From Mobula hypostoma (taxonomy: Eukaryota), in the NCBI RefSeq assembly GCF_963921235.1, contig NC_086097.1, forward strand, positions 99,512,001 to 99,576,000: a DNA stretch of 64,000 nucleotides. The letters are read 5' to 3'. Below are positions 1 through 57,689 of the stretch, piece by piece. The position numbers and the translations under genes are program-made. The notes under the pieces were generated by a model that was not told where the DNA came from, made no database searches, and saw only the letters and a program-made list of their open reading frames with translations. How positions within the stretch are numbered: the first letter of the stretch is position 1; each line of letters starts with the position of its first letter.

Positions 1-606
1 TACACAGCACACAGTACACAGTACACAGTACACAGCACACAGTACACAGCACACAGTACACAGTACACAGCACACAGCACACAGTACACCGCACACAGCA
101 CACAGTACACAGTACACAGCACAAAGTACACAGCACACAGTTCACAGTACACAGTACACCGCGCACAGCACACAGTACACAGTACACAGTACACAGCACA
201 CAGTACACCGCACACAGCACACAGTACACAGTACACAGCACACAGTACACAGCACACAGTACACAGTACACAGCACACAGTACACAGCACACAGCACACA
301 GCACACAGTACACAGCACACAGTACACAGTACACAGCACACAGCACAAAGTACACACCACACAGTACACAGTACACAGCACACTGTACACATCACACAAC
401 ACACAGTACACAGCACACAGTACACAGTACACAGCACACAGCACACAGTACACAGTACACAGTACACGGCACACAGCACAACGCACACATTACACAGTAC
501 ACAGTACACAGCACACTGTACACATCACACAACACACAGTACACAGCACACAGTACACAGTACACAACACACAGCACACCGTACACAGCACACAGTACAC
601 AGCACA
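1..606. repeat. 7-bp satellite (CACAGTA/CACAGCA)n, left part
   Basis: Tandem CACAGTA/CACAGCA heptamers with variants (CACCGCA, CACATTA) running to the window edge. Confidence 0.97.
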
Positions 607-2788
607 AGACCTACAAGATCAACAAGGACTACAAGATCTTCGCCCGGGCAATGGCCAACCGTCTGGGTTCGGTAATTGGACAGGTGGTCCATCCTGACCA
701 ATCTTACACAGTCCCGGGCCGCTCCATCCAGGACAATGTCCACCTAGTACGGGACCTGATCCACTTACTCCAGGAGACTGGGACCCCGGCAGCGTTTCTT
801 TCTCTTGACCAGGAGAAGGCGTTTGACCGGGTGGACCACAGTTTCCTGCTGGGCACCCTGCAGGCTTTTGGGCTCGGACCACACTTTGTGGCCCGAGTTC
901 GGCTCCTCTGTACTCTGCTGCAGAGTGCCTAGTTAAGATTAACGGATCATTGACAGGACCTATCCACTTCCGAAGAGGAGTGCGTCAAGGGTGCCCCATG
1001 TCCAGTCAACTGTATGCGATCTGTGTCGAGCCATTCCTCAGCCTTCTTCGGTGAAGGCTGACAGGTCTGGTTCTGCGCGAACCGGACATGGGGGTCGTCC
1101 TCTCGGCCTACGCCGATGATGTACTCCTCATGATGACAGACCCCTGTGACCTGTGGAGGATGCGCGAGTGCCAAGATGTTTTCTCGGCGGCATCCTCCGC
1201 CAGGATCAACTGGGCGAAATGTTCCGGACTCTTAGTAGGCCAGTGGCAGGTAGACTCCCTGCCGGAGGAGATGAGAGCTTTTGAGTGGAGCACCAGACGT
1301 CTTCTCTATCTGGGAGTCTGCCTGAATCCTTCTGGGGAGACCTGGCTGGCGAACTGGCAGAACCTGGAGACAAAGGTCATGGCCCGGCTAGGGCGCTGGT
1401 CAGGCCTTCTCAGGGTGCTTTCCTATCGAGGCAGGGTGGTGGTCATAAACCAGCTGGTGGCCTCCATGTTGTGGTACCGGATGGTCACCTTGGCACCCCC
1501 CCCCCCGCCCCTTTTGTTGCGAGAATGCAGAGGAAGCTAGTGGACTTCTTCTGGGGAAACAGGAAACACTGGGTCTCTGCAGCGGTTCTGAGTCTCCCAG
1601 TAGGAGAGGGCGGACAGTCGCTGGTGTGTGTACGCACACGACTGGCGGCTCTCCGCCTCAGGACTCTGCAGAGATTCCTGTATGCCGAGCACCCTCCCAG
1701 GTGGCACGTGTTGGCGACTTTCTTCCTCCGGAGGGGCTGCTGTCTTGCCGAAGATATTCAGCTACCGCCGGCGGGTGTCAGCCGTGCTGCTTTGCAGAGG
1801 CTGCCAGGCTTCTATCAGGACCTACTGAGAGTCTGGAACATGGTTGCCTCAGGCCGGGAATCCCCTCCTCTGGCAGAGGGCGGGGTCCTGGCCGACCCTT
1901 GCCCTGCCTCAGCGGATGTCGGTGCGGCTCAGGTGTGTGGATCGACTCAAGCTGAACTGCTCGTCGGGCCCAGGCCCCGCAGCCTTACCCGAGAGACGAA
2001 TCCACACAACTTGAGCCGTCTCTCATTCAGGGATGCAGGCAGGAGGTACCTTTATGGGCTATTGCTCCACACCCTCCACTTCCTAGCCCTTGTCCACCGT
2101 CCCGACACGCCATGGCGGTCGGTCTTCCCACCTGGAGGTGAGGGGGGTCCCCAATGGAAGTCCCTTTACAAGGGAGTCCTTCCCATGCACCTCGGGGATC
2201 TCGGCTGGAGGGTGCTGCATAAAGTGGTGCCCTGCAATAAGTTCTTTAGTCTGTACACGGATCTCCCAGCCGCGTGTCACTTCTGCGGGTTGGAGGAGAC
2301 TGTGTACCATATGTACGTGGAGTGTGTGAGGTTGCAGCCTCTTTTCGCGTATTTGCGTGGGCTGCTTCTCGCCTTCTGGTTGCATTTCAGTCCCACCCTA
2401 TTCATATATGGTCATCCAGTAAGGAGGGGGGCACAGAGGGATGAGGATGTCCTTGTCAACTTGCTCCTGGGGCTGGCGAAAATTGCCATCCGTGGCTCCT
2501 GGAAAAGGGTGGCAGGAGGTTCTCCCCGGGCGGACTGCCTGGCTATGTTTAGGGGGTATGTTCGTGCCCGGGTGAACATTGAAAAGGAATACGCACAGTC
2601 CACGGCGACCGTAGAGGTGTTCCGGGACCGTTGGGCTCCGCGGGGTGTAAATGCCATCATTGATGAGGATGGCAATATATTGGTTTAAGATGTATTGTCT
2701 GTTTGTAGTGTAGTAAATATGTTAGTCACTGGGTTTGTAAATATTGTATAGCACCGACATTTGTAATAAAGAATTTTGTAAAAAAAAA
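607..2788 (+). mobile_element. 5'-truncated Tx1-clade (L1 group) non-LTR retrotransposon, ORF2 RT to 3' UTR and poly(A)
   Basis: DYKIFARAMANRL, LDQEKAFDRVDH, GVRQGCP, AYADD and a C-terminal CCHC (CHFCGLEETVYHMYVEC) across ORFs 651-932, 1088-1540 and 1285-2688. Frameshifts near 910 and at the C-run near 1500. AATAAA at 2765-2770 and A9 tail at 2780-2788. Confidence 0.9.
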
Positions 2789-5700
2789 GTACACAGTACA
2801 AAGCACTCAGCACACAGTACACAGCACACCGCACACAGTACACCGCACACAGCACACAGTACACAGTATACAGTACACAGCACACAGTACGCAGTACACC
2901 GCACACAGCACACAGTACACAGTACACAGCACACAGCACACAGCACACAGCACACAGTACACAGCACACAGTACACAGCACACAGCACACAGTACACAGC
3001 ACACAGTACACAGTACACAGTACACCGCACACAGCACACAGTACACAGTACACAGTACACAGCACACAGTACACCGCACACAGCACACAGTACACAGTAC
3101 ACAGCACACAGTACACAGCACACAGTACACAGCACACAGCACACAGTACGCAGTACACAGCACACAGCACAAAGTACACACCACACAGTACACAGTACAC
3201 AGCACACAGTACGCAGTACACTGTACACAGCACACAGTACGCAGTACACTGTACACAGCACACTGTACACATCACACAGCACACAGTACACAGCACACAG
3301 TACACAGCACACAGCACACAGTACACAGTACACAGTACACGGCACACAGCACAACGCACACATTACACAGTACACAGTACACAGCACACAATACACAGCA
3401 CACAGTACACACCACACCACACAGCACACAGTACACAGTACACAGTACACAGCACGCAGCACACTACACAGCACACAGCACACCGCACACCGCACACAGT
3501 ACACAGCGCAATGCACACAGTACCCAGTACACAGCACACAGTACACAGTACACACCACACAGCACACAGTACACAGTGCACATTACACAGTACACAGCAC
3601 ACAGTACACAGTACACAGTACACAGCGCGCAGCACACCACACAGCACACAGCACACCGCACACCGCACACAGTACACAGTACACAGCGCAACGCACACAG
3701 TACACAGTACACACCACACAGCGCAACACACACAGCACACAGTACACAGTACACAGCACACAGCACACAGTACACAGTACACACCACACAGCGCAACACA
3801 CACAGCACACAGTACACAGCACACAGTACACACCACACCACACAGCACACAGTGCAACACACACAGCACACAGTACACAGTGCACATTACACAGTACACA
3901 GCACACAGTACACAGTACACAGCACACAGCACACAGTACACAGTACACAGCACACAGCACACAGTACAAAGCACTCAGCACACAGTACACAGCACACGGT
4001 ACACAGCACACCGCGCACAGTACACCGCACACAGCACACAGTACACAGTATACAGTACACAGCACACAGTACACAGCACACAGTACGCAGTACACCGCAC
4101 ACAGCACACAGTACACAGCACACAGCACACAGCACACAGTACACAGCACACAGTACACAGCACACAGCACACAGTACACAGCACACAGTACACAGCACAC
4201 AGTACACAGTACACAGCACACAGCACACAGTACACAGTACACAGCACACATTACACAGCACACCGCACACCACAGCACACAGTACACAGCACACCACACA
4301 CCACACAGCACACAGCACACCACACATAGTACACAGTACACAGCACACCACACACAGTACACAGTACACACCACACCACACAGCACACAGCGCAACACAC
4401 ACAGCACACAGTACACAGTGCACATTACACAGTACACAGCACACAGTACACAGTACACAGCACACAGTACACAGTACAAAGCACTCAGCACACAGTACAC
4501 AGCACACGGTACACAGCACACCGCACACAGTACACCGCACACAGCACACAGTACACAGTATACAGTAAACAGCACACAGTACACAGCACACAGTGCGCAG
4601 TACACCGCACACAGCACACAGTACACAGTACACAGCACACAGCACACAGCACACAGCACACAGTACACAGCACACAGTACACAGCACACAGCACACAGTA
4701 CACAGCACACAGTACACAGCACACAGCACACAGTACACAGTACACAGCACACATTACACAGCACACCGCACACCACACCACACAGTACACAGCACACAGT
4801 ACACAGCACACCACACACCACACAGCACACAGCACACCACACATAGTACACAGTACACAGCACACAACACACCACACAGCGCAACGCACACAGTACACAG
4901 CACACAGTACACAGCTCACAGCATAATGCACACAGTACACCGTACAGAGTAATACATAGCACCGACATTTGTAATAAAGAATTTTGTTACAAAAAGTACA
5001 CAGCACACAGCACACAGTACACAGCACACAGTACACAGTACACAGTACACAGCACACAGTACACAGCACACAGTACACAGCACACAGCACACAGTACACC
5101 GCACACAGCACACAGTACACAGTACACAGCACACAGTACACAGCACACAGTTCACAGTACACAGTACACCGCGCACAGCACACAGTACACAGTACACAGT
5201 ACACAGCACACAGTACACCGCACACAGCACACAGTACACAGCACACAGTACACAGCACACAGTACACAATACACAGTACACAGCACACAGCACACAGCAC
5301 ACCACACAGCACACAGCACACAGTACACAGCACACAGTACACAGCACACAGCACACAGTACACAGTACACAGTGCACAGCACACAGTTCACAGTACACAG
5401 TACACCGCACACAGCACACAGTTTACAGTACACAGTACACAGCACACAGTACACCGCACACAGCACACAGTACACATCACACAGCACACAGCACACAGTA
5501 CACAATACACAGCACACAGCACACCACACAGCACACAGTACACAGTACACAGCACACAGCGCAACGCACACAGTACACAGTACACAGCACACAGTACACA
5601 GTACACACCACACAGCGCAACGCACACAGCACATAGTACACAGTACACAGCACACAGCGCAACGCACACAGTACACAGTACACAGTACACAGCACACCAC

Positions 5701-7833
5701 ACAGCACACAGTACACAGTACACAGCACACAGCACCCAGTACACAGTACACCGCACACAGTACACAGTACACAGTACACAGCACACAGTACACAGTACAC
5801 AACACACAGCACACAGTACACAGTGCACATTACACAGCGCAATGCACACAGTACACAGTACACACCACACAGCGCACCACACACAGCACACAGTACACAG
5901 TGCACATTACACAGTACACAGCACACAGTACACAGTACACAGTACACAGCGCAACGCACACAGTACACAGTACACACCACACAGCGCAACACACACAGCA
6001 CACAGTACACAGCACACAGCACACAGCACACAGTACACAGTACACACCAAACAGCGCAACACACACAGCACACAGTACACACCACACCACACAGCACACA
6101 GCGCAACACACACAGCACACAGTACACAGTGCACATTACACAGTACACAGCACACAGTACACAGTACACAGCACACAGTACACAGCACACAGTACACAGT
6201 ACAAAGCACTCAGCACACAGTACACAGCACACCGCACACAGCACATAGTACACTGCACACAGCACACAGTACACAGTATACAGTACACAGCACACAGTAC
6301 ACAGTACACCACACACAGCACACAGTACACAGTACACAGTACACAGCACACAGCACACATCACACAGCACACAGCACACAGTACACAGCACACAGCACAC
6401 CGCACACAGCACACAGCACACAACACACCACACAGCGCAACGCACACAGTACACAGCACACAGTACACAGCTCACAGCATAATGCACATAGTACACCGTG
6501 CAGAGTACACAGTACACAGTGCACAGCACACAGCACACATCACCCACTACACAGTACACAGCACACAGCACACAGTACACAGTACACAGCACAACACACA
6601 CAATACACAGTAAACAGTACACAGCACACAGTACACCGCACACAGTACACAGCACACAGTACACAGTACACCGCACACAGCACGCAGTACACAGTACACA
6701 GTACACAGCACACAGTACACAGTACCCAGCACAGAGTACACAGTACACAGCACACAGCCCACAGCACACTGCACACAGCTCACAGGACACAGCACACAGT
6801 ACACAGTACACAGCACACACCACACAGCACACAGTACACAGCACACAGCCCACAGCACACAGTACACTGTACACAGCACACAGCACACAGCACACAGTAC
6901 ACAGCACACAGTACACAGCACACAGTACACAGTACACAGCACACACCACACAGCACACAGTACACAGCACACAGTACACATTACACAGCACACCGCACAC
7001 CACACCACACAGTACACAGTACACAGTACACAGCACACCGCACACCACACAGCACACAGCACACCACACACAGTACACAGTACACAGCACACAGTACACA
7101 GCACACAGCACACAGCACACAGTACACTGCACACCGCACACCACACACCGTACACAGCACACAGCACACAGAGCAACGCACACAGTACACAGTACACAGT
7201 ACACAGTACACCGTAAACAGTACACAGTACACAGCACACAGCGCACCGTACAGAGTACAGAGTACACAGTACACAGTACACAGCACACAGCACACAGCTC
7301 ACAGCACACAGCACACAACACACAGCACACAGTACACAGTACACAGCACACAGCACACAGTACACAGTACACAACACACAGCACACATTACACAGCACAC
7401 CGCACACCACACCACACAGTACACAGCAGACAGTGCACAGTACACAGCACACCGCACATCACACAGCACACAGCACACCACACATAGTACACAGTACACA
7501 GCACACCACACACAGTACACAGTACACAGCACACAGCACACCGCACACAGCACACAGCACACAACACACCACACAGCGCAACGCACACAGTACACAGCTC
7601 ACAGCATAATGCACACAGTACACCGTACAGAGTACACATTACACAGTACACAGCACACAGCACACCGTACAGAGTACAGCGTACACAGTACACAGCACAC
7701 AGCACACAGCTCACAGCACACAGCACACAGCACACAGCACACAGCACACCACACACAGCACACCGTACAGAGTACACAGCACACCGTACAGAGTACACAC
7801 TACACAGTAAACAGCACACAGTACACAGCACAC
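2789..7833. repeat. 7-bp satellite (CACAGTA/CACAGCA)n, main ~5-kb array with higher-order variants
   Basis: Continuous heptamer array. The variant TACAAAGCACTCAG recurs at 2797, 3965, 4475 and 6200. Confidence 0.97.
4953..4995 (+). mobile_element. Extremely 5'-truncated second copy (3' end only) of the Tx1 element
   Basis: 4956-4987 ATAGCACCGACATTTGTAATAAAGAATTTTGT is identical to 2748-2779 and is followed by TACAAAAA, then GTACACAG satellite. Confidence 0.9.
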
Positions 7834-8519
7834 TTTGTTACAATAGCAGAAATCTATGCAGTCACAAACAAAATAGCCCAAGCCCCTGAGTGTCATGGCC
7901 TGCAGTGTGAGGGTGCATGGGCTGTTATCCTGGGGCAAATACACTTCATCACACTCTAATGCAGCCACAGACAAACACAATCCAACTTGTGTTCAGCTGA
8001 GTGAATACTGGAGGGCAGTCCCCCAACTCAGCACAGACCTAAAGCTCTCTCCCACACCGGCTCCGGCATCTCCTTCCCCAGGCGGCTGCGGCAGGCGACC
8101 CCTGGCCCCACTTGCCATGAATTTCCAGCATTTTCTGTTTTGGTGCATTTTCTGAATGTGCTAACTCCAGCTACAGCAAATACATACGCAGAGGAAACTT
8201 ACAACTGCTCAGTTGTTCACCCATGAAGATTCTGTTAAAAGTACAGTATTGTGCTGTATTACAGGGGCATCAGAGTTCTGCAGAATTATTTAACGTCGGT
8301 GTTGCAGTGAATCAATGTTAAATAGATAGATAGATATACTTTATTGATCCCGAGGGAAATTGGGTAAGTTGAAATATTCAGATATCATGTGTGATACGAG
8401 CATCAGCTGAAGTAGTTGGGACAGTGAGTGCATTGTTTCTGGAAAATGGCATCTTACGAGATGGGTAATGCACTCTTTTACACCTTTACAGAGATGCATG
8501 CATATTTATATCTTTTTTT

Positions 8520-8730: not shown

Positions 8731-8774
8731 CCCAAACAGCTACACCTCCGTGTATTCCCCGAAATATACACCAC

Positions 8775-8912
8775 AGTCCTGTCCCCTAACCCGACACGAA
8801 TGTACTGTCCCCTAACCCTACACCACTATATTGTCCCCAACCCTACACCATTGTACTGTCCCCTAACTCTACACCACTGTCCTGTCCCCTAACCCTACGC
8901 CACTGTATTGTC
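8775..8912. repeat. 26-bp minisatellite containing CCCTAACCCTA, left half
   Basis: About 5 units of TCCCCTAACCCTACACCAYTGTACTG. Confidence 0.9.
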
Positions 8913-9827
8913 CATAGAAACCATAGAAAAACTACAGCACAGAAACAGGCCTTTTGGCCCTTCTTGGCTGTGCTGAACCTTTTTCTGCCTCGTCCCACTG
9001 ACCTGCACACGGACCATATCCCTCCATACACCTCCCATCCATGTATCTGTCCAATTTATTCTTAAATGTTAAAAAGAACCCGCATTTACCACCTCGTCTG
9101 GCGGCTCATTCCATACTCCCACCACGCTCTGTGTGACGAAGCCCCCCCAATGTTCCCTTTAAACTTCTCCCCCCTCACCCTTAACCCATGTCCTCTGGTT
9201 TTTTTCTCCCCTTGCCTCAGTGGAAAAAGCCTGCTTGCATTCACTCTATCTATACCCATCATAATTTTATATACCTCTATCAAATCACCCCTCATTCTTC
9301 TACGCTCCAGGGAATAAAGTCCTAACCTATTCAACCTTTCTCTGTAACTCAGTTTCTCAAGTCCCGGCAACATCCTTGTAAACCTTCTCTGCACTCTTTC
9401 AACCTTATTAATATCCTTCCTGTAATTTGGTGACCAAAACTGCACACAATACTCCAGATTCGGCCTCACCAATGCCTTATACAACCTCATCATAACATTC
9501 CAGCTCTTATACTCAATACTTTGATTAATAAAGGCCAATGTACCAAAAGCTCTCTTTACGACCCTATCTACCTGTGATGACACTTTTAGGGAATTTTGTA
9601 TCTGTATTCCCAGATACCTCTGTTCTACTGCACTGCTCAGTGCCTTACCATTTACCCTGTATGTTCTACCTTGGTGTGTCCTTCCAACGTGCAATACCTC
9701 ACACTTGTCTGTATTAAACTCCATCTGCCATTTTTCAGCCCATTTTTCCAGCTGGTCCAAGTCCCTCTGCAGACTCTGAAAACCTTCCTCACTGTCCACT
9801 ACACCTCCAATCTTTGTATCATCAGCA
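8913..9827 (-). mobile_element. 5'-truncated CR1 LINE inserted in the minisatellite
   Basis: Open 237-aa ORF 9086-9799 (LQRDLDQLEKWAEKWQMEFN, LVRPNLEYCVQFWSP, RRMRGDLIEVYK). Truncated at ADDTK, with a (TTTCTATGG)n tail at ~8913-8930. Confidence 0.95.
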
Positions 9828-9979
9828 TCCCCTAACCCTACACCATTGTACTGTCCCCTAACTCTACACCACTGTCCTGTCCCCTAATCCTACACCATTG
9901 TACTGTCCCCTAACCCTACACCATTGTACTGTCCCCTAACTCTACACCACTGTCCTGTCCCCTAATCCTACACCACTGT
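9828..9979. repeat. 26-bp minisatellite containing CCCTAACCCTA, right half
   Basis: About 6 units with period 26; variant order AACCCT/AACTCT/AATCCT occurs twice (78-bp higher order). Confidence 0.92.
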
Positions 9980-15149: not shown

Positions 15150-18100
15150 TGTGGCGACCCATTTTCTAGCACCCACGAACCGGCTCATGAAACAGCGTGC
15201 GCAGGCAGAGGGCTGGCCCCAAAAAGGGCGCCAGGCCATCTTCACCAGCAGGGGGAAAATCCCGCTCGTGGAAAGGGTCTGGGAATATGCATTCCCCACA
15301 GCAGTCCCGCCCCAGGGAGGGCGGGAACGGAAAGGCTTTAAAGCAGGCCGCGAAGTTTGAATAAATCTCATTATCGCAACTCTAACTCACCGACTACGTG
15401 TGGTTATTTTAGCGCTGTGTGTAGCACACCGCTACAATTGTTGACCCCGACGACCCAAACGATATTTGGACCAGAGATGACCGACGCTGCATCTGTTCAC
15501 GCAGTTTCGTTAAAATTGCCAAGCTTCTGGACGCTGCGACCCCATTTCTGGTTCGAACAAGCAGAAGCTCAATTCCACATTCGGCAGATAACCTCGGAGT
15601 CCACTCGCTACTATTACGTGCTGAGCTCCCTCGACCAGGAGACAGCTGCACAAGTTGAGGAGTTTATTCAGTCGCCCCCGGAGGACGGCAAATACACAGC
15701 ATTCAAAGCCCTGCTCATAAGGACTTTCGGACTCTCACGGTGCGAACGAGCACGCCGCTTAATGCACCTGGATGGTTTGGGAGACAGGCCGCCGTCAGCA
15801 TTAATGAACGAGATGCTGGCCCTGGCTGAAGGACACAAACCCTGCCTCATGTTTGAGCAGGCGTTCCTAGAGCAACTGCCCGAGGACATATGCCTGCTGC
15901 TGTCCGACGCAGATTTCAGCAACCCCCGGGAGGTGGCGGCCCGAGCAGATGTGCTGTGGAATGCCAGGAAAGAGAGAGGGGCATCCGTTGCACAGATCAC
16001 CAAGCCGCGTGCCCAACGACAGACCAGACCAGGCCCGGCAGCAGAGCCTACAAAACCCGGCGACGGGAGTGAGGAGCCCAACGAACAATGGTGTTTCTAC
16101 CACCAGCGGTGGGGCACAGAGGCCCGCCACTGCAGACCACCCTGCAAATTTCCTGGGAAATGCCAGAGCCAGCTGCCGCTGATGGCTACGGCGGCTGGCC
16201 ATCAGGACAGCCTCCTGTACGTCTGGGACAAGCAGTCGGGACGCCGCTTTTTGGTCGATACCGGAGCGGAGATCAGCGTCTTACCTCCAACGAGTTACGA
16301 CACCCGCAACAGAGAACCGGGACCCATCCTGAGGGCCGCTAATGGCAACACAATACGAACCTACGGCACCCGCACGGTGCGGCTACAGTTCAGCTCCAGC
16401 CGGTTCACGTGGGACTTCACACTGGCCGCCGTGGCCCAACCACTCCTGGGGCCGGATTTTCTGTGAGCCCACAGCCTGCTGGTCGACTTGCAGGGAAGCG
16501 ATTAGTCCACACCAAGACTTTTCAAACGTTCTCCCTGGGTGAAGCACAGTTGCCAGCGCCACACCTGGACTCCATCACGCTGTCCGACGATGAATTCACC
16601 AGGGTCCTGGTGGATTTCCCATCAGTACTGACACCGCAGTTCACGGCAGCCATGCCCAGTCACGGAGTACAGCACCACATCCCGACCCAGGGACCACCCC
16701 TCCAGGCCCGTGCTCGAAGGCTTCCCCCGGACAAGCTCCGACTGGCGAAGGAGGAGTTCAAGAAGATGGAGGAATTGGGGATCATACGACGGTCCGACAG
16801 CCCATGGGCCTCCCCCCTTCACATGGTGCCCAAGGCAACGGGGGGCTGGAGACCATGCGGTGACTACCGCAGACTGAACGAGGCTACAACGCCACACCGC
16901 TACCCTGTGCCGCACATTCGAGACTTCACAGCAAACCTACACGGCGCAAGGATCTTTTCCAAGATAGACCTCGTCCGGGGATACCATCAAATCCCGGTAC
17001 ATCCGGAAGATTCCCCAAAACAGCACTCATCACCCTGTTTGGACTTTTTGAATTCCTCCGAATACCGTTTGGTCTAAAGAATGCCGCACAGACTTTCCAG
17101 CGGCTAATGGACGCGGTGGGACGCGACCTGGACTTTGCATTCATCTATTTGGATGACATCCTCATAGCCAGCAGTAGTCGGCAGGAGCATCTGTCCCACC
17201 TCCGCCAGCTCTACTCCCGCCTGGGTGAATTCGGCCTTACAATCAACCCAGCCAAATGCCAGTTCGGACTCGACACCATCGACTTCCTGGGCCACAGGAT
17301 TACTAAAGACGGGGCAACCCCGCTGCCCGCCAAGGTAGACGCGGTCCGCCACTTCCCCCGACCCAACACAATCAAAGGCCTGCAGGAATTCGTGGGTATG
17401 GTGAATTTCTACCTCCGTTTCCTCCCCTCAGCAGCCCGAACCATGCGCCCCTTGTTCACTCTAATGTCGGGTAAGGGCAAGGACATTACCTGGAACGAAG
17501 AGGCCGCAACCGCTTTCGTTAAAACCAAAGAAGCCTTGGCAAACGCCGCGATGCTAGTGCACCCCAGAGCGGGCGTTCCTACTGCCCTCACGGTGGACGC
17601 ATCCAACACAGCAGTCGGTGGAGTGCTGGAACAACTCATCAAGGGTCGCTGGCAACCCCTGGCGTTCTTCAGCAAACACCTACGACCACCCGAACTCAAA
17701 TACAGTGCTTTCGACCGGGAGCTATTGGCACTATACCTGGCAATCCGGCATTTCAGGTACTTCTTAGAAGGTAGGCCCTTCACCGCGTTCACAGACCACA
17801 AACCGCTTCCCTTTGCGTTCACTAAGGTGTCCGACCCCTGGTCGTCCCGCCAGCAGCGACATCTGTCCTACATCTCCGAGTACACGACGGACATCCGGCA
17901 TGTCTCTGGAAAGAACAATGTCATGGCAGACGCACTTTCCAGACCCACCATACAGGCCCTGTCCCAGGGGGTGGACTATGCAGCGCTGGCAGAGGCACAG
18001 CAGGCAGACGCGGAGATCCCCAGTTACAGGACTGCAGTCTCCGGTTTGCAGTTCCAAGACCTCCCCGTAGGCCCAGGTGAGAGGACCCTACTATGTGACG

Positions 18101-19524
18101 TAGCTACTGGCCAACCCCGCCCCATCGTCCCAGCAGCCTGGCGCCGGCGGGTGTTCGAATCCATTCACAACTTAGCGCACCCCTCCATCAGGACAACCGT
18201 CCGGCTGGTCTCCAACAGGTTCGTGTGGCATGGACTTCGTAAACAGGTCAGTGAATGGGCCAAAACGTGCATGCAGTGCCAAACGGCCAAGGTGCAGTGG
18301 CACACCAAGGCTCCACCGCAGCGGTTCGAACCCACCCGCCGGAGGTTCGACCACATCCATGTGGATATTGTGGGGCCCCTGCCAGTGTCGCGAGGAGCGC
18401 AGTACTTCCTAACTATGATAGACCGGTTCACCAGATGGCCAGAGGCAGTCCCGCTCACCGACACCACCTCCGATTCCTGCGCCCGAGCACTGATCGCAAC
18501 CTGGGTAGCACGCTTTGGGGTACCGGCCCACATTACCTCTGACAGGGGCGCCCAGTTCACCTCCAGCCTGTGGTCAGCTATGGCCAGCCTTTTAGGATCG
18601 CAGCTACACCACACAACTGCCTACCACCCACAGTCGAACAGACTAGTGGAGCGTTTCCACCATCACCTGAAGTCGGCTCTCATGGCCCGCCTGGAGGGGC
18701 CTAACTGGGTTGACGAGCTTCCCTGGGTCCTGCTCGGAATCCGCACGGCGCCCAAGGAAGATCTGCACACCTCGTCGGCCGAGTTGGTGTACAGCGCACC
18801 CCTGGTCGTCCCAGGAGAGTTCATACCAGCCCCAAGGGGGCAAGAGGAAGAACCCACAGCAGTCCTGGACAGACTACGGGAGAGGCTCGGTAACCTGGCC
18901 CCCATACCCATTTCACAGCACGGACAAAGCCCGTCCTGCGTACCCAAAGACCTGCAGAACTGTAAGTTTCTTTTTGTATGACGGGGCGGACACCGGGCAC
19001 CGCTACAGCGGCCCTACGAGGGGCCGTTTAAGGTGATCAGGAACAATGGGTCCACGTTCGTGCTGGACATTGGGGGGAGAGAGGAGGTTTTCACGGTGGA
19101 CCGACTCAAACCGGCCCATGTGTTTTGGCGCAGCCGGTCTGGGCTCAGGCACCGCGGCACAGGGGCAGACCCCCAAACAGAGGCCGATCCAGACTGTGGA
19201 CATTGGGGGAGGTATCGCCGGTTCTGAGGGAGGGGTTATGTGGCGACCCACTTTCTAGCACCCACAACCCGGCTCACGAAACAGCACGCGCAGGCAGAGG
19301 GCCGGCCCCAAAAAGGGCGCCAGGCCATCTTCACCAGCAGGGGAAAATCCCACGCGCGGAAAGGGTCTGGGAATATGCATTCCCCACAGCAGTCCCGCCC
19401 CAGGGAGGGCGGGAATGGGAAGGCTTTAAAGCAGGCCGCGAAGTTTGAATAAATCTGTTTATCGCAACTCCAACTCACCGACTCCATGTGGTTATTCTAG
19501 CGCTGTGTGTAGCACACCGCTACA
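15150..19524 (+). mobile_element. Full-length Ty3/Gypsy LTR retrotransposon, CsRn1/Kabuki-like lineage, mutated
   Basis: LTRs 15150-15436 and 19239-19524 (TG...CA), 4-bp TSD CCAT, tRNA-Trp-like PBS, and PPT GAGGGAGGGG at 19226-19235. Gag from ATG 15477 (KLPSFW, CFYH...CRPPC), protease LVDTGA, RT YLDD, RNase H DAS, integrase HHCC/DDE and GPF. Stops at 16464 and 18979; frameshifts near 16490 and 17020. Confidence 0.97.
15439..15452 (+). promoter_or_regulatory. Primer-binding site, tRNA-Trp-like
   Basis: TGTTGACCCCGACG lies 2 nt after the 5' LTR and has one mismatch to TGGTGACCCCGACG, the complement of the tRNA-Trp 3' end. Confidence 0.8.
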
Positions 19525-35364: not shown

Positions 35365-38300
35365 AAGAAGGCTGCAAGTGAACGGCTGATTTTTCGGATC
35401 GAAGGGAGTTTTTTACTACTCGGAGTAAAAGAGAGGTGAGACTGCGCAGGCGCGTGACGTCAGCCAGTAGAGCGCGAAAGGTTTAAAAAGAAGACCGCCA
35501 TATCCAGCGACCAGCTGAGTGAGAGGCAGCAGAGTGATAGGGCTTTGGCTCAACGAGCTTAGGCGGTAACGGGACGAGGCGAAGTAGGTTTACCAGTGTT
35601 ATTTGCGGAAAGGAGGAAGTATATGTGTGAGGCCAGTTTTCTGTGCTCGGTGTCAGATGTGGGAGGTCCTGGAGTCTCCCAGCCTCCCGGACGGCCATAT
35701 CTGCACCAGGTGTGTCGAGCTGCAGCTCCTGAGAGACTGAGTTAGGGAACTGGAGATGCAGCTCAATGATCAGGGAGAGCGAGGAGGTGATAGAAAGGAG
35801 TTATAGGCCGGTAATCACACCGGGGCCACGGGAGACAGACAAATGGGTCACAGTCAGGAGACGGAAGGGGAAGAGTCAGGTATGAGAGAGTACCCCAGTG
35901 GCTGTGCCCCTTGACAATAAGTACTCCTGTTTGAGTACTGTTGGGGGAGACAGCCTACCTGGGGGAAGCGACAGTGGCCGTGTCTCTGGCACAGAGTCTG
36001 GCCCTGTGGCTCAGAACAGTAGGGAAAGGAAGAGGATGGCAGCAGTGATAGGGGACTCTATATTAGGGGGTCAGACAGGCGATTCTGTGGATGCAGGAAA
36101 GAAACTCAGATGGTAGTTTGCCTCCCAGGTGCCAGGGTCCGGGATGTTTCAGATCACATCCAAGATATCCTGCAGTGGGAGGAAGAACAGCCAGAGGTTG
36201 TGGTACATATTGGTACCAATGACATGGGTAGGAAAAGGGAAGAAGTCCTGAAAAAAGACTACAGGCAGTTGGGAAGGAAGTTGAGAAGCAAGACCACAAA
36301 GGTAGTAATCTCAGGATTACTGCCTGTGCCATGCGACAGTGAGAATAGGAATAGAATGAGGTGGAGGATAAATGTGTGGCTGAGGGATTGGAGCAGGGGG
36401 CAGGGATTCAGATTTCTGGATCATTGGGACCTCTTTTGGGGCAGGTGTGACCTGTACAAAAAGAACAGGTTGCACTTGAATCCCAGGGGAAATAATATCC
36501 TGGCGGGGAGGTTTGCTAAGGCTACCGGAGAGAGTTTAAACTAGAATTGTTGGGGGGTGGGAACCGAACTGAAGAGACTGGGGAAGAGGTGGTTGGCTCA
36601 CAAATAGGGAAAGCTTGGAGACAGTGTGTGAGGGAGGATAGGCGGGTGATAGAGAAGGGACGCGCTCAGACAGACGGTTTGAGATGTTTCTATTTTAATG
36701 CAATGACTGTTGTGAACAAAGCAGATGAGCTTAGAGCGTGGATCAGTACTTGGAGATATAATGTGGTGGCCATTACAGAGACTTGGGTGGCTCAGGGACA
36801 GGAATGGTTACTTCAGGTGCCGGGTTTTATATGTTTCAGGAAGAACAGGGAGGGAGGCAGAAGAGGTGGGGGCGTGGCACTGTTGATCAGAGATAGTATC
36901 ACGGCTGCAGAAAAGGTGGACGCCATAGAGGGATTTTCTACGAAGTCTCTGTGGGTGGAGGTTAGGAACAGGAAGGGGGTCAATAACTTTACTGGGTGTT
37001 TTTTATAGGCCGCCCAATAGTAACAGGGATATTGAGGAGCAGATAGGGAAACAGATCCTGGAAAAGTGTAATAATAACAGAATTGTTGTGATGGGAGATT
37101 TTAATTTCCAAAATATCAATTGGCATCTCCCTAGAGCAAGGGGTTTAGATGGGGTGGAGTTTGTTAGGTGTATTCAGGAAGGTTTCTCGACACAATATGT
37201 AGATAAACCTCCAAGAGAAGAGGCTGTACTTGATCTGGTATTGGGAAATGAACCTGGTCAGGTGTCATTTCTCTCAGTGGGAGAGCATTTTGGAGATAGT
37301 GATCATAATTCTATCTCCTTTACAATAGCATTGGAGAGAGATAGGAACAGACAAGTTAGAAAAGCATTTAATTGGATTAAGGGGAATTATGAGGCTATCC
37401 GGCAGGAAATTGGAAGCTTAAATTGGAAACAGATGTTCTCAGGGAAAAGTACAAAAGAAATGTGCAAATATTCAGGGGATAACTACAAGTTGCAGCTGGA
37501 AATAGAAAAAGCGTGTCAGAAGGACAATGTCAAGATAATTATGGGGGATTTTAATATGAAAGTGGATTGGGAAAGTCGGGAAGGTAATGGATCTCAGGAG
37601 AGGGAGTTTGTAGAATGCCTATAGGATGGCTTTTTGGAGCAACTTGTCCAGAAGCCCACCAGGGGACCGGCTGTTTTGGATTGGGTGCTGTGTAATGAAC
37701 CTGAGGCGATTAGGGAGCTGGAGGTAAAGGAACCTCTTGGAAGTAGTGATCATAATATGATTGAGTTCAGTTTCAAATTTGAAAAGGAGAAGCTGGTATC
37801 AGGTGTATCGATATTTCAGTGGAACAGGGGAAATTACAGTGGTATGAGAGAGGAACTGGCCCAAGTCAATTGGAAAAGTAAACTAAATGGAGGGACGGCA
37901 GAGCAGAATTGGATGAAATTCCTACAAGAAATAAGGAAAATGCAGGAAAAATATATTCCAAGAAAAAAGAAAATCATGAATGGAAAAATGGCACAAATGT
38001 GGCTAACAAGAGAGGTTAAGGCAAAAATAAAAGCAAAAGAAACGGCGTACAAGGAAGCAAAAATTAGTGGGAAAAATGAGGACTGGAAGACCTTTAAAAA
38101 CTTACAGAAAGAAACTAAGAAAGTCATTAGGAAAGAAAAGATGAATTATGAAAGGAAGTTGGCGATTAACATAAAAAAGGATACTAAGAGTTTTTTAAAA
38201 TATATGAAGAGTAAAAGAGTGACAAGGGTAGATATGGGACCGATTGAAAATGATGCTGGAGTAATTATAATGGATAACAAAGAGATGGCGGAGGAACTGA

Positions 38301-41300
38301 ATGAGTATTTTGCATCAGTCTTCACAGTGGAAGACATGAGCAATATACCTGATAGCCAGAGGTATCAGGGAATAGAATTAGGTACAGTCAAGATAACTAG
38401 AGAGAAAGTGCTTGGGAAGCTAAGTGGACTAAGAATAGATAAGTCTCTCGGCCCGGATGAGGTGCACCCAAGGGTTCTGAAGGAAGTAGCTTTGGAGATT
38501 GTGGAAGCATTGGAAATGATCTTTCAGGAATCAATAGACTCTGGCATGGTTCCGGAGGACTGGAAGGTCGCAAATGTAGTTCCGCTATTTAAGAAAGGAA
38601 GGAGGCAGCAAAAAGAAAATTACAGACCTATTAGTCTGACATCGGTGGTTGGAAAGTTATTGGAGTCAATCCTCAAGGACGAAGTTATGAAATACCTCGA
38701 GGTGCATGACAAGATAGGCCGAAGCCAGCATGGTTTCATGAAGGGAAGATCCTGCCTTACCAACTTATTGGAATTTTTTGAGGTAATCTCAAATAAGATT
38801 GACAAGGGAGAGGCTATGGATGTTGTGTATTTGGATTTTCAAAAGGCCTTCGATAAGGTGCCGCATATGAGGCTGCTTAATAAGATGAGAGCCCATGGAA
38901 TTATAGGAAAGATATTGGAATGGGTGGAGCATTGGCTGATAGGCAGAAAGCAAAGGGTGGGAATAAAGGGCTCCTATTCTGATTGGTTGCCGGTTACTAG
39001 TGTTGTTCCGCAGGGGTCGGTGTTGGGGCCGCTTCTTTTTACGATGTATATCGATGATTTGGATTATGGATTAAATGGTTTTATGGCCAAGTTTGCGGAT
39101 GACACCAAGATAGGTGGAGGAGCAGGAAATATTGAAGAAACGGAAAGGTTGCAGAGAGACTTAGTCAGTTTAGGAGAGTGGGCAAAGAAATGGCAGATGA
39201 GATACAACATTGACAAATGTACGGTTGTACATTTCGGAAGAAGAAATAATCGGGTCGATTATTATTTAGATGGGGAGAAAATTCAAAAATCGGAAGTGCA
39301 AAGGGATTTGGGGGTCCTCGTGCAAGATACCCTAAAGGTTAACCACCAAGTTAGATTGGCAGTAAGGAAAGCGAATGCTATGTTGGCATTCATTTCAAGA
39401 GGAATAGTGTATAAGAGTAAGGAGGTGTTGATGAGGCTCTATGGGGCATTAGTGAGACCTCATTTGGAATACTGTGTGCAGTTTTGGGCCCCCTATCTTA
39501 GAAAGGATATACTGATGTTGGAGAGAGTTCAGAGAAGATTACGAGGATGATTCCTGGAATGCAGGGGCGAACATATGAGGAGCGTCTGTCGGCTCTTGGA
39601 TTGTATTCATTAGAGTATAGAAGAATGAGAGGGGATCTCATAGAAACGTTTCGAATGTTGAAAGGGTTGGACAGAGTAGATGTGGAAAGGTTGTTTCCTT
39701 TGGTGGGTGAGTCCAGGACAAGAGGCCATAGTCTTAGAATTAGAGGGTACCCAGTTAAAACAGAGATGAGGAGAAATTTTTTTAGCCAGAGGATCGTGGA
39801 TTTGTGGAATTCGTTGCTACATATGGCTGTGGAGGCCCGATCATTGAGGGTGTTTAAGGAGGAGATTGACAGGTATCTAATTAGTCAGGGTATCAAGGGA
39901 TATGGGGGAAAAGCCGGAAATTGGAACTAGATGGGTGAATAGTTTAGCTCATGTGGGAGCTGCGAAGCAGACTCGATGGGCCGAATGGCCTACTTCTGCT
40001 CCTTTGTCTTGTGATCTTGTGATCTTGTGATATTTGTGTGGAGTTCTGCATAGGTACATTCCAATGAGATAGGGAATTTATGGTAAGGTACAGGACCCAT
40101 GGTGTACAAAGGCTGTAATAAGTCTAGTCAAGAAGAAAATAAAAGCTTACAAAAGGTTCAGAGAGCTAGATAATCTGAGAGATCTAGAAGATTATAAAGC
40201 TAATAGGAAGGAGCTTAAAGAGGAAATTAGGAGAGCCAGAAGGGGCCATGAGAAGGTCTTGATGGGCAGGATTAAGGAAAACTCCAAGGCATTCTACAAG
40301 TATCTGAAGAGCAAGAGGATAAGACGTGAAAGAATAGGACCTATCAAGTGTGACAGTGGGAAAGTATGTATGGAACTGGAGGAAATAGCAGAGGTACTTA
40401 ATGAATACTTTACTTCAGTATTCACTATGGAAAAGGATCTTGGTGATTATAGTACTGACTGACAGCGGACTGAAAAGTTTGAGCATGTAGATATTAAGAA
40501 AGAGGATATGCTGGAGCTTTTGGAAAGCATCAAGTTGGATAAGTCGCCGGGACCAGATGAGATGTACCCCAGGCTACTGTGGGAGGCAAGGGAGGAGATT
40601 GCTGAGCCTCTGGCGATGATCTTTGCATCATCAATGGGGACGGGAGAGGTTCCAGAGGATTGCAGGGTTACAGATGTTGTTCCCTTATTCAAGAAAGGGA
40701 GTAGAGATAACCCAGGAAATTATAGACCAGTGAGTCTTACCTCATTGGTTAGTAAGTTGATGGAAAAGATCCTGAGTGGCAGTATTTATGAACATTTGGA
40801 TAGGCATAATATGATTAGAAGTAGTCAGCATGGCTTTGTCAAGTGTAGGTCATGCCTTACGAGCCTGATTGAATTTTTTGAGGATGTGACTAAACACATT
40901 GATGAAGGTAGAGCCATAGATGTAGTGTATATGGATTTCAGCAAGGCGTTTGATAAGGTACCCCATGCAAGGCTTATTGAGAAAGTAAGGAGGCTTGGCA
41001 TTCAAGGGGACCTTGCTTTGTGGATCCAGAACTGGCTTGCCCACAGAAAGCAAAGAGTGGTTGTAAACGGGTCATATTCTGCATGGATGTCAGTGACCAG
41101 TGGTGTGCCTCGGGGATCTGTTCTGGGACCCCTGCTCTTTGTGATTTTTATAAATGACCTGGATGAGGAAGTGGAGGGATGGGTTAGTAAGTTTGCTGAT
41201 GACACAAATGTTGGGTGTGTTGTGGATAGTGTGGAGGGCTGTCAGAGGTAACAGCGGGACATAGATAGGATACAAAACTGGGCTGAGAAGTGGCAGATGG

Positions 41301-42090
41301 AGTTCAAACCAGATAAGAGTGAAATGGTTCATTTTGGTAGGTCAAATATGATGGCAGAATATCGTATTAATGGTAAGACTCTTGGCAGTGTGGAGGATCA
41401 GAGGGATCTTGGGGTCCGAGTCCATAGGACGCTCAAAGCAGCTGTGCAAGTTGACTCTGTGGTTAAGAAGGCATATGGTGTTTTGGCCTTCATCAATCGT
41501 GGAATTGAATTTAGGAGCCGAGAGGTAATGTTGCAGCTAAATAGGACCCTAGTCAGACCACACTTGGAGTACTGTGTTCAGTTCTGGTCACCTCACTACA
41601 GGAAGGATGTGGAAACCATAGAAAGGGTGTAGAGGAGATTTACAAGGATGTTGCCTGGATTGGGGAGCATGCCTTATGAGAATAGGTTGAGTGAACTCGG
41701 CCTTTTCTCCTTGGAGCGACGGAGGATGAGAGGTGACCTGATAGAGGTGTACAAGATGATGAGAGGCATTGATCATGTGGATAGTCAGAGGCTTTTTCCC
41801 AGGGTTGAAATGGTTGCCACAAGAGGACACAGGTTTAAGGTGCTGGGGAGTAGGTACAGAGGAGACGTTAAGTTTTTCACTCAGAGAGTGGTGAGTGCGT
41901 GGAATGGGTTGCCGGCAACGGTGGTGGAGGTGGATACGATAGGGTCTTTTAAGAGACTTTTGGATAGGTACATGGAGCTTAGAAAAGTAGAGGGCTATAG
42001 GTAAGCCTAGTAATTTCTCAGGTAGGGACATGTTCGGCACAGCATTGTGGGCCAAAGGGCCTGTATTGTGCTGTAGGTTTTCTATGTTTC
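35365..42090 (+). mobile_element. Full-length degenerate CR1 LINE (ORF1 zinc finger/zipper plus SGNH esterase; ORF2 APE plus RT)
   Basis: ORF1 from ~35623 (CARC...ICTRC, IGDS, VVVHIGTND, LHLN; stop 36544). ORF2 endonuclease 36547-37480 (ITETW, MGDFN, DSDH) and RT 40031-42004. Tail TTTCTATGTTTC at ~42090. Confidence 0.95.
37482..40030 (+). mobile_element. Younger 5'-truncated CR1 of another subfamily, nested in the full-length CR1
   Basis: 638-aa ORF 37634-39550 plus 39547-39930, with a (TCTTGTGA)n tail. The host sequence rejoins at TTCAGGGGATA|TTTGTGTGG. Confidence 0.95.
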
Positions 42091-46283: not shown

Positions 46284-46608
46284 AATCCCTCAGCTATAAT
46301 CCCTCATGTATAACGTGTCGTGTATAACCCCTATTGTATAACCGCACATGTAGAACCCTTCGTGTATAATCCCTCAGTTATAATCCCTCAAGTATAATCC
46401 CTCATGTAGAATGCATCATCTATAATCCCTCATGTATATTATCTCATAGATGATGCCTCGTGTATAACCCCTCATGTAATATTCTTCATGTATAACCCTT
46501 CATGTTACACCCCTGATGTATAATGCCTCATGCACACATATACCTGTACATTATATTCCCTTATGTAAAATCCCTCATATATATTCCCTCATCTGCAATA
46601 AAAACAGA

Positions 46609-47835
46609 AGAACATAAGGAATAGGAGCAGGAGTAGACCATCTGTCCCATTGAGCCTGCTCCACCATTCAATAAGATCATGGTTGATTAGACTATGGACT
46701 CATCTCCATCTACCTGTCTTTTCCCCATAATCCTTAATTCCCCTACTATGCAAAAATCTATCCAACCTTGTCTTAAATACAAACGTTTGTATATTTACTG
46801 AGGTAGCCTCCACTGCTTCACTAGGCACAGAATTCCACAGATTCACCACTCTTTGGGAAAAGCAGTTCCTCCTCATCTCCATCCTAAATTTACTGCCTCA
46901 AATCTTGAGACTATGTCCCCTAGTTCTAGTCTCACCTATCAGTGAAAAAACTTTCCAGCCTCTAACTTATCTATCCCTTTCATAATGTTATATGTTTCTA
47001 TAAGATCTCCTCTCATCCTTCTGAATTCCAGCACGTATAGTCCCAGGTTACTCAATCTCTCCTCATAGTCTAACCTCCTCATCTCTGGAATCAACCTGGT
47101 GAACCTCCTCTGCACCACCTCCAAAACCAGTATATCCTTCCTCAAGTAAGGAAAACAGACCTGCACACAGTACTCCAGGTGTGGCCTCACCTGTACAGTT
47201 GCAGCAATACCTCCCTGCTTTTAATTTTAATCTCTTTAGCAATGAAGGCTAACCTTCCATTTGCCTTCTCGATAGCCTGCTGCACCTGCAAACTAACCTT
47301 TTGTGATTCATGCACAAGCACTCCCAAGTCCCTCCGCACAGCAGCATGCTGCAATCTTTTACCATTTAAATAATAATCTGCTCTTCCATTTTTCCTTCCA
47401 AAGTGGATGACCTCGCATTTACCAACATTGTAATCCATCTGCCAGACATTTGCTCACTCACTTAACCTATCTATATCTCTCTGCAGACTCTCCGTATTCT
47501 CTGCATAATTTGCTATTCCGGTCAATTTAGTGTCATCAGGAAATTTAGATACAGGACACTCGGTCGCACTTCCAGATCGCTAATGTATATTGTGAACAGC
47601 ACTGACCCCTGCAGCACACCACTCACTACTGATCGCCAACCAGAGAAACACCCATGTATCCCAACTCTCTGCTATCTATTGGTTAACCAATCCTCTATCA
47701 GTGCTAACACATCACCCACAACTCTATACATCCTTATCTTATGGAAAAGTCTTTTCTGTGACACCTTGTTGAAAGACTTCTGGAAATCTAAATAGATACA
47801 GTCCATCTGTTCCCCTCTATCCACTGTACTCGTTA
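46609..47835 (-). mobile_element. 5'-truncated CR1 LINE
   Basis: ORFs 46700-46882, 46939-47190 and 47187-47438. Confidence 0.92.
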
Positions 47836-53300: not shown

Positions 53301-53487
53301 GGCTATCGGCTGCCAGGCAGAAATTGATAAGTTCTTGACTGGACATGGCAAAAAAGGTTACTGGGAGAAGGCCGAAGAGTGGGTTGAGGAGGGGAAAAAA
53401 GGATCAACCATGATTGAATGGCGGTGCAAACCTGATGGCCAGATGGCCTAATTCTGCTCCTATGTCTTATGGTTTAATGGTCTTATA
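50338..53487 (+). mobile_element. CR1 LINE (50338-50643 plus 52847-53487) split by an L1
   Basis: KFVDDTKIG...ESVVKKA continues as RGLEFKSR...RPHLEYC after the insertion. Confidence 0.9.
50644..52846 (-). mobile_element. Internally deleted and rearranged L1-clade LINE with both termini
   Basis: 5' end GGGGGTTCCGG; ORF1 coiled coil 52398-52667; ORF2 C-terminus 50869-51402 (HIFWDCP); poly(A) at 50644. TSD GTTAGCATC at 50633-50641 and 52847-52855. Oppositely oriented segment at ~51709-52323. Confidence 0.88.
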
Positions 53488-53632
53488 ATGCCTCTGTATA
53501 ATCGTTCATGTATAATCCCTCATATATAATCACTCATCCATAAACCACGCAAATTCACCCATGTGTAACCCCTCATGTATAACACATCATACATAACCCC
53601 TCATATGTAATCCCTCATATGTAATCCCTCAT

Positions 53633-55216: not shown

Positions 55217-55649
55217 CCCTCATGTGTAACCCCTCATGTATAATCCCTCATGTATTCCTCGTGTATAATCCCTCATGTGCAAACCCTCATTTAGGAATAC
55301 TCATCTAAAACCCCTCATGTATCCCTCATGTATAACCCATCATGTGTAAACCCTCATATAGGAATATTCATCTAAAACTCCTCATGTATAACTCCTCATG
55401 TAAAATCTTCCATATTATACCCCTCATACATAATCCCTCATATGTAATCCCAGATGTATAATTCCTCATCTATAATTCCTCATTTATCATTGCTCATCTA
55501 AAATCCCTCACGTATAACCCCTTGTGTATAATCTCTGATGTATAAACAGTCTTCACGAGAACAGGTGGAGGTGAGGTAAGTAGGTAAGTTTATTTCTTGT
55601 TTCTTTTTCATATTTAACTCTTGAAAGGAGGTAGAGGAAAGCCAGAGTT

Positions 55650-56775: not shown

Positions 56776-57175
56776 CCAGGCTATCCGATGGGATTTACCA
56801 GGCTATTCGATGGTATCCGATGGAATTTACCGGGCTATCCAATGAGATTTATCAGACTATCCGATGGGATTTACCAGGCTATCCGATGAGATTTACCAGA
56901 CTATCTGATGGAATTTACCGGGATATCCAATGGGATTTACCAGGCTATCCATTGGGATTTACCAGGCTATCCAATGGGATTTTCCAGACTATCCGATGGG
57001 ATTTAACAGGCTACCTGATGGGATTTACCAGGCTACCTGATGGGATTTACTAGGCTATCCATTGGGATTTACCAGGCTATCCAATGGGATTTTCCAGACT
57101 ATCCGATGGGATTTAACAGGCTACCTGATGGGATTTACCAGGCTACCTGATGGGATTTACTAGGCTATCCAATGG
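56776..57175. repeat. 22-bp minisatellite (CCAGGCTATCCGATGGGATTTA)n
   Basis: About 18 tandem units; a 110-bp five-unit block is duplicated (starts near 56944 and 57054). Confidence 0.93.
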
Positions 57176-57689
57176 GCACATGAAGGTGCACAGAATGGAG
57201 GCATATGGACATTATGTAGGTAGAAAGGATTAGTTTAGTTAGGCATTTAATTACTGGTTTAATTAGTTCAGTGAGCTGAAGGACCTGTTCCCATGCTGCA
57301 CTCAGAATTCGATGCTCTAAATACATTCAGGGGTGGGAAGGAATGAACATCACACAGAGGAGGGCTGGCAAAGAGATGGTGAGGGAAACCTGAAACTGCA
57401 TTTGCTGAACTGCTCTTCCATAGTGGGAAAAGGTGATGATGAATGTTTCTCTGGAAGGGCAGTCAGAGCGTGGTTCCCAGTGCCAGTGGTTATCCAGGTC
57501 ACGTGGTGGGAGGGTGGGGGGGGGCAAGAATCTAAGGGACGGGAGACTCAGCAGAGAGAAAATGGACAAACACTTCTGCGGACAAAGACACGATTCCAGG
57601 ATGGGGTGTCAGGGTCAAGAATGTCACAAGTGTCTAAGGTGCAAGGGTATACACCCAGAGGTTGTAGTTCACACTGGTACTAAACTGTC

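What the first reader, a model, noticed from the sequence alone, without database searches (positions are those of the whole stretch)
600..5000. Candidate satellite-targeting Tx1 retrotransposon: two insertions at the same phase of the (CACAGYA)n array
Seen: a 2.2-kb Tx1-type LINE (607-2788) and a ~40-bp copy of its 3' end (32 nt identical; 4956-4987 vs 2748-2779) both lie in the heptamer satellite. They share orientation, and both A-tails run into GTACACAG. Their 5' junctions and tails differ (A9 vs TACAAAAA), which favours separate events. I saw no other transposon family in the ~5.6 kb of this satellite, although the rest of the window is saturated with them. Known: several Tx1-clade families are sequence-specific (Kibi and Koshi in microsatellites, Keno in U2 snRNA, Dewa in tRNA spacers, Mutsu in 5S rDNA). 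Inference: this family may target CACA^GTACACAG; I do not recall a described family with that target.
Basis: partly seen in the sequence, partly recalled or inferred. Interest (0 to 1): 0.75.

Follow-up and report, generated by a model that had tools for sequence, protein, structure and literature searches.

The report
Tx1 LINE at look-alike satellite site
A dead, shortened jumping gene of the Tx1 type really sits in this seven-base satellite, but its family seems to aim mainly at a different repeat, and the tiny second copy may be a repair by-product and not a second jump.

Summary
A decayed, 5'-truncated LINE spans 626-2788; 608-625 is junction filler. It has a 14-nt target-site duplication with one mismatch, so it is a true retrotransposition event. 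Its RT groups with Xenopus Tx1L (100/99; 60.6% identity over 289 aa). The 32-nt copy at 4956-4987 is real.

The proposed target, CACA^GTACACAG, is not supported as the family's main site. In four public runs, 0 of 4067 laid contigs ran past the 22-nt satellite flank. Of four displayed 3' loose-end rows, none showed the heptamer, and two (two organisms) showed GGG(G)TCAGACACAGA. That fits three unchecked earlier notes from this genome on a Tx1 family hitting a 52-bp repeat. Only 12 of 627 loose-end rows were visible, so a minor second target stays open.

The phase used is the satellite phase most like that flank (9-10 of 15). The short copy is weak evidence of a second jump: no duplication over 4 nt, a satellite-like 5' junction, and a 'tail' matching the array's right boundary. 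Same phase and strand arise by chance at 0.02-0.12. Satellite-targeting Tx1 families are already known. New member of a known kind.

The parts
1..606 (+). (CACAGYA)n heptamer satellite, left part; runs off the window start
   Evidence: TRF; unit map
594..607 (+). 5' copy of a 14-nt target-site duplication (one C/T mismatch to the 3' copy)
   Evidence: its last A is a rare array variant (4 of 217 comparable sites)
608..625 (+). 18-nt junction filler, largely a copy of the element's first bases (627-638)
   Evidence: sequence; family contigs diverge from the window at 626 in 4 of 4 runs
626..2688 (+). 5'-truncated Tx1-clade ORF2 (RT remainder, C-terminal region, zinc-knuckle-like motif); broken by a frameshift near 906, a stop at 1052-1054 and a frameshift in the C run near 1494-1506
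   Evidence: ORFs; Pfam RVT_1 and weak zf-RVT; tree with Tx1L; breaks against family contigs
2689..2788 (+). 3' UTR with AATAAA at 2765 and A9 tail (2780-2788)
2788..2801 (+). 3' copy of the target-site duplication
2789..7833 (+). heptamer satellite, main part, with higher-order variant blocks (offsets about 520, 1180, 1710, 2260)
4952..4995 (+). short insert: a few junction bases, 32 nt identical to the LINE 3' end (4956-4987) and an A-rich stretch; duplication at most 4 nt
7834..7843 (+). first 10 bases after the array, identical to 4983-4992 (end and 'tail' of the short copy); the only two copies in the window

Best explanation
The long copy is a dead member of a multi-copy Tx1L-lineage LINE family whose main target is another repeat (the flank after the tail reads GGG(G)TCAGACACAGA). 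Mechanism: the ORF2 endonuclease nicked the bottom strand of the heptamer array at the phase that most resembles that main site. The nick primed reverse transcription on the poly(A) tail, which stopped at 626. A short template jump made the 18-nt filler, and staggered second-strand cleavage left a 13-14 nt duplication. Shown: clade, truncation point, filler, TSD, the other flank in two organisms. Inferred: the endonuclease step and the look-alike reading. The short copy lacks the long copy's marks. More likely than not (about 55:45) it was copied in during break repair, from the nearby long copy or the element RNA through short homologies, which would by itself give the same strand and phase. 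The heptamer is thus at most a minor, look-alike site.
For:: 0 of 1943, 2018, 5 and 101 laid contigs reach past the stretch ends (22 nt of satellite were included at the 3' end). Of 4 displayed loose-end rows at 2787-2788, none is the heptamer; X1 (5 contigs, agreement 0.62) and X13 (1 contig) read GGG(G)TCAGACACAGA. Depth in the last bin is accounted for by the element part alone (my arithmetic on tables 2 and 4); starred clade with Tx1L; 14-nt TSD for the long copy, at most 4 nt for the short; the + strand GYAC phase scores 9.7-9.9 of 15 against that flank, the best of the 20 strand/4-mer classes printed (others 5.0-8.7); background at 9 or more is 4.2%, at 10 or more 1.1%; the short copy's 5' junction is one mismatch from an array variant; its 'tail' equals the array's right boundary.
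Against: Only 12 of 627 loose-end rows were shown; most laid contigs never reach the 3' end; the tool filters some records and contigs drop rare variants, so heptamer junctions could be hidden. The organisms are coded: I did not show that any is the window's species or carries the heptamer satellite, and at 5 of the 40 listed sites run X1 holds no contig with the window's letter. Two of the 4 rows show neither repeat clearly (X5: mostly poly(A), consensus ends in CACAG, agreement 0.67; X13 at 2787: another flank). The look-alike score is post hoc. The two tails differ at three places in 9 nt while 32 nt are identical, and the two 3' flanks carry different variant blocks; both fit two separate jumps. 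That this is the same family as in the earlier notes rests on the flank only; three sequence look-ups found nothing.
Confidence: 0.6

Rival explanations
1. The heptamer satellite is a regular second target of the family, or the target of an older subfamily; both copies are separate endonuclease-guided insertions at CACA^GTACACAG.
For: Two copies in 5.6 kb at the same strand and phase; different tails, 5' junctions and 3' variant blocks. The long copy has a TSD. The phase used resembles the other flank. Tx1-Mar families use two preferred sites (PMC4494074 section 16).
Against: No contig of 4067 runs through the satellite flank and 0 of 4 displayed 3' rows show it. Phase coincidence is only 0.02-0.12. 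The short copy has no TSD over 4 nt and may be templated.
Confidence: 0.2
2. No preference for the heptamer at all: the long copy is one of the family's off-target insertions, and the short copy is a DNA-level copy of its 3' end made by strand invasion from the satellite side during array turnover.
For: Such copying gives the same strand, phase and full identity by construction. The array shows many internal duplications. Microhomology at the 5' junction; the 10-mer shared with the array boundary (3.7e-5 expected in 20 positions, post hoc).
Against: The long copy sits in the best look-alike phase (that class is 12% of positions). The short copy's tail and 3' flank differ from the long copy's. 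Other 10-mer and 9-mer matches to the tail exist elsewhere in the window.
Confidence: 0.17
3. The short copy is an assembly or consensus artefact inside a low-complexity array.
For: It lies in a 5-kb simple repeat and is 100% identical to a stretch 2.2 kb away.
Against: Its junctions and tail carry their own bases, and the array around it keeps an ordered variant structure.
Confidence: 0.03

Closest known systems
Tx1L of Xenopus laevis (ORF2 = P14381; P0212 here)
   Same: Best named relative: 60.6% identity over 289 aa of RT region, 54.9% over 426 aa; in one starred clade (100/99, 8 rows) with the window's RT, turtle and sturgeon elements. Tx1L's endonuclease is sequence-specific (PMC1950540, passages).
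   Different: Tx1L inserts in the DNA transposon Tx1D; here the flanks are tandem repeats. The endonuclease is missing from this copy.
Kibi, Koshi and crocodilian Tx1 families of (TC)n, (TTC)n, (TTCC)n, (TTTC)n microsatellites; Tx1 families marked 'Sat' in Kojima 2015 Fig. 3
   Same: Tx1 elements inserted in tandem repeats, satellites included (PMC4494074 section 15 and legend; PMC3812793 passage).
   Different: Other repeat units. I could not label Kibi/Koshi proteins in my tree; the teleost rows, among them a Tetraodon 'pol-like protein' (BAC82605), fall outside the clade that holds this element. The figure itself and the supplements were not readable.
Tx1-Mar of crocodilians
   Same: Preference, not strict specificity, with two preferred sites in some families (PMC4494074 sections 15, 16).
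   Different: Target is a Mariner element; the lineage clusters with Keno per that paper.
52-bp-repeat-targeting Tx1 family of this scan's earlier notes (e1-7813771, e1-7808877, e1-7813884; unchecked AI notes)
   Same: Same genome, Tx1L named as closest, site given as CCCC^GGG, which fits the GGG(G) start of the flank I saw; TSD noted as 16 bp against 13-14 here.
   Different: Those copies are called young and on target; this one is decayed and in another repeat. Family identity was not shown by sequence.

Membership tests
Tx1 clade non-LTR retrotransposon | RT groups with Tx1L | tested here: met
   IQ-TREE, 34 rows, 290 columns: 100/99 clade with P14381. Three of my chosen rows were dropped for short alignments; the outgroup is a long branch.
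Tx1 clade non-LTR retrotransposon | APE endonuclease N-terminal to RT in ORF2 | not testable with these tools
   Copy is truncated at 626; the two full-length relatives scanned (P0001, P0212) carry Exo_endo_phos.
Tx1 clade non-LTR retrotransposon | C-terminal zinc knuckle after RT | tested here: inconclusive
   zf-RVT E 0.0019, 19.2 bits, below the 27.5 cut-off; Tx1L itself scores 21.9.
Tx1 clade non-LTR retrotransposon | Poly(A) 3' end, 5' truncation and target-site duplication or truncation | tested here: met
   AATAAA at 2765, A9, truncation at 626, 14-nt TSD with 1 mismatch.
Target-specific Tx1 family for (CACAGYA)n | More than 20% of family flanks are the target (criterion of PMC4494074, section 6 passage) | tested here: inconclusive
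   0 of 4 displayed 3' rows and 0 of 4067 contigs running through; leans against, but 615 rows were hidden and the source genome was not available.
Target-specific Tx1 family for (CACAGYA)n | Several independent insertions at one phase | tested here: inconclusive
   One clear insertion; the second lacks a TSD over 4 nt.
52-bp-repeat-targeting Tx1 family (earlier notes) | 3' end followed by the GGG... half of the target repeat | tested here: met
   Contigs at 85% or more alike to this element continue into GGG(G)TCAGACACAGA in X1 and X13; not in this copy, and the motif is absent from the window at up to 2 mismatches.
52-bp-repeat-targeting Tx1 family (earlier notes) | Sequence identity to the copies described there | tested here: inconclusive
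   Three look-ups by sequence returned nothing; the notes give no sequence.
Keno / Dewa / Mutsu | Flanks are U2 snRNA, tRNA spacer or 5S rDNA (Keno; Dewa and Mutsu recalled) | tested here: not met
   Both flanks in the window are heptamer satellite.

The most novel reading that the evidence does not exclude
One Tx1L-lineage endonuclease reads a short shared pattern (G, four bases, CAG, then ACACAG) and so uses two different satellites, a 52-bp repeat and this heptamer, as regular targets. The decayed copy here would record a second target, or an older target before a switch between satellites.
Probability: 0.2. Interest if true: 0.5.

Novelty: new member of a known kind. Interest (0 to 1): 0.27.

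Why it matters
As it stands this is one more copy of a target-preferring Tx1 family in a cartilaginous fish, a habit known for the clade. If the heptamer proved a regular second target, the two repeats would give a natural pair of substrates to define what a Tx1 endonuclease reads, and a case of target drift between satellites. The short copy is a caution: a 3'-end scrap in a satellite can mimic a second targeted insertion.

Tried and rejected
Source genome: none held, so no genome-wide flank table. The 3' end as a DNA pattern found 0 matches in metagenome, viral and prokaryote contigs. Protein-based locus searches confirmed 0 of 377, 0 of 2 and 0 of 68 candidate stretches.

A hidden third short copy just upstream of the window: suggested by the offset-5010 similarity, rejected because 7 of 11 differences in 1-250 lie in the first 57 bases. 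Short copy as a plain duplication-deletion of the long copy with its flank: rejected, the rare units after the long copy are missing. A longer TSD for the short copy: none over 4 nt.

'Satellites here exclude other TEs': not general, since CR1-type pieces lie between blocks of the 14-mer satellite (46883-47836, 53761-55220). Solved structures gave only weak hits to L1 ORF2p (E 0.008). Contig depths were not used as copy numbers. Run X5 shows many GATC joints, so I gave its loose ends little weight. Earlier-finding look-ups by sequence, by words and near this place were empty.

Papers: searches listed no description of a Tx1 family with either target; Repbase and Dfam could not be searched, so this is no proof of absence.

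Full report
Setting. The window opens in a heptamer satellite, (CACAGYA)n, at 1-606 and 2791-7833. The rest is rich in CR1-type, gypsy-type and other retroelement remains: 23 merged coding fragments cover 19.9 of 56.2 kb, and 29.8 kb with dispersed self-repeats. Unchecked earlier notes call this genome a devil ray.

The long copy. ORF pieces at 612-932, 1055-1498 and 1525-2685 hit RVT_1, RVT_1 and weakly zf-RVT. Contigs of four public runs laid on 587-2810 leave the window sequence at 626 in 4 of 4 runs and go on into upstream RT sequence, so the element starts at 626 (table 7). 608-625 is filler that largely repeats 627-638. The copy is dead: a frameshift near 906, a stop at 1052-1054 and a frameshift near 1494-1506. 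It ends in a 3' UTR with AATAAA at 2765 and A9. A 14-nt duplication with one C/T mismatch flanks it, 594-607 and 2788-2801. Its last A is a rare array variant (4 of 217 sites), though it could also be the first filler base, at one in four. I read this as a true target-primed insertion.

Clade. With X at the breaks, the RT region is 60.6% identical over 289 aa to Tx1L ORF2 (P14381). A 34-row tree places it in a starred clade (100/99) with Tx1L, turtle and sturgeon elements, apart from most teleost rows. Three chosen rows were dropped for short alignments, and I could not label Kibi, Koshi, Keno, Dewa or Mutsu proteins.

The short copy. 4956-4987 equals 2748-2779, and no other part of the window shares 14-mers with the 3' end. 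It is the only non-satellite stretch in 5607 nt of array. Its 3' flank lacks the rare units that follow the long copy, so it is not a plain duplicate with an internal deletion. But it has no duplication over 4 nt, and its 5' junction is one mismatch from an array variant. The 10 bases 4983-4992, which make up its odd tail, recur only at 7834-7843, the first bases after the array. The expected count is 0.21 over the window but 3.7e-5 in 20 positions after the array end; this is post hoc, and other 9-10-mer matches exist elsewhere. Copying from the long copy or from element RNA during break repair would give the same strand and phase by construction. Against this, the tails differ at three places in 9 nt. 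I put non-independent origin at about 55%.

Chance. With poly(A) absorbing target A's, two random insertions share strand and next 8 bases at 0.022; a second matches the first at 0.044; the phase class is shared at 0.12. No other TE in 5.6 kb has P of about 0.1 from the flank density (my arithmetic). The window's 14-mer satellite is interrupted by CR1-type pieces.

Family flanks. The element's words are held by 18 of 24 listed runs from 6 studies and 5 coded organisms, at shares up to 0.59. I laid 4 of the 24. Of 1943, 2018, 5 and 101 laid contigs, none reaches past the stretch ends, which included 22 nt of satellite at the 3' side. Twelve loose-end rows were shown and 615 were not. Four of the twelve lie at 2787-2788. 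X1 (5 contigs, agreement 0.62) and X13 (1 contig) read GGG(G)TCAGACACAGA after the tail. X13 has a second contig with a different flank. X5 (7 contigs, 0.67) is mostly poly(A). None shows the heptamer. That flank is absent from the window. Limits: contigs drop rare variants, a filter removes records, most contigs do not reach the 3' end, and I did not show that these organisms carry the heptamer or include the window's species.

Earlier notes. After, a look-up returned three unchecked notes from this genome on a Tx1 family inserting, in about half of its copies by two of them, at CCCC^GGG of a 52-bp repeat. The flank I saw fits this. Family identity is not shown by sequence (empty).

Why this phase. 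Anchored at the junction with one gap allowed, the satellite flanks match the other flank at 9 and 10 of 15; background reaches 9 in 4.2% and 10 in 1.1% of positions. The + strand GYAC phase is the best of the 20 strand/4-mer classes printed. This supports a look-alike site, but the test was devised after seeing the data.

Mechanism. Most likely (0.6): endonuclease nick at a look-alike of the main target, poly(A)-primed reverse transcription, early stop with a short template jump, staggered second cut. A regular second target gets 0.2; no preference plus a DNA-level copy 0.17; artefact 0.03.

What is known. From PMC4494074 (passages, and sections 15 and 16 in full; figure and supplements not seen): many Tx1 families prefer targets; microsatellites, satellites, RNA genes and transposons are listed; specificity is called above 20% of flanks; Tx1-Mar uses two sites. 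Its supplements may name satellite targets that bear on novelty. PMC1950540 (passages): Tx1L-EN is sequence-specific. PMC3812793 (passages): Kibi, Koshi and Waldo targets. PMC4640811 (passages): Tx1 is one of three groups holding most target-specific families. A 2026 mobulid genome preprint (passages) has no occurrence of 'Tx1' in its main text; its supplements are closed. Kojima and Fujiwara 2004 I know only through these citations. Nine searches listed no description of either target; Repbase and Dfam were not searchable.

Verdict. The feature is real; the proposed target is probably not the family's main one; new member of a known kind; interest 0.27.

Noticed in passing
window 7834-7843 and 4983-4992: The first 10 bases after the satellite equal the end and tail of the short copy; either a repair template or the last remnant of a third element end.
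   Followed up: partly
window 46284-50321 and 53484-55545: A 14-mer satellite in several blocks, the longest 180 copies, with CR1-type pieces between blocks (46883-47836, 53761-55220).
   Followed up: partly
window 15342-19513: Fairly intact gypsy-type LTR retrotransposon: gag-like ORF, RT, RNase H and integrase domains, with frameshifts.
   Followed up: no
window 36023-41869: Long CR1-type LINE region with a GDSL-esterase ORF1, APE and RT; probably more than one copy.
   Followed up: no
window 8767-8913 and 9828-9979: Two short arrays of the same 26-mer lie on either side of a CR1-type fragment (8835-9935), as if one array were split.
   Followed up: no
window 58-231 and 5068-5241: Near-exact duplication of a satellite variant block at offset 5010, across both inserts; the array has further offsets near 520, 1180, 1710, 2260 and 2870.
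   Followed up: partly
window 50872-51420 and 52213-52326: C-terminal fragments of another LINE with an L1-like look (my reading of the ORF; not tested against a library), on opposite strands.
   Followed up: no
window 56814-57176: 22-mer tandem repeat, 16.5 copies.
   Followed up: no
run X13, place 2787: One family copy has a (TAAA)n-like tail and a different flank, so tails and flanks vary within the family.
   Followed up: no
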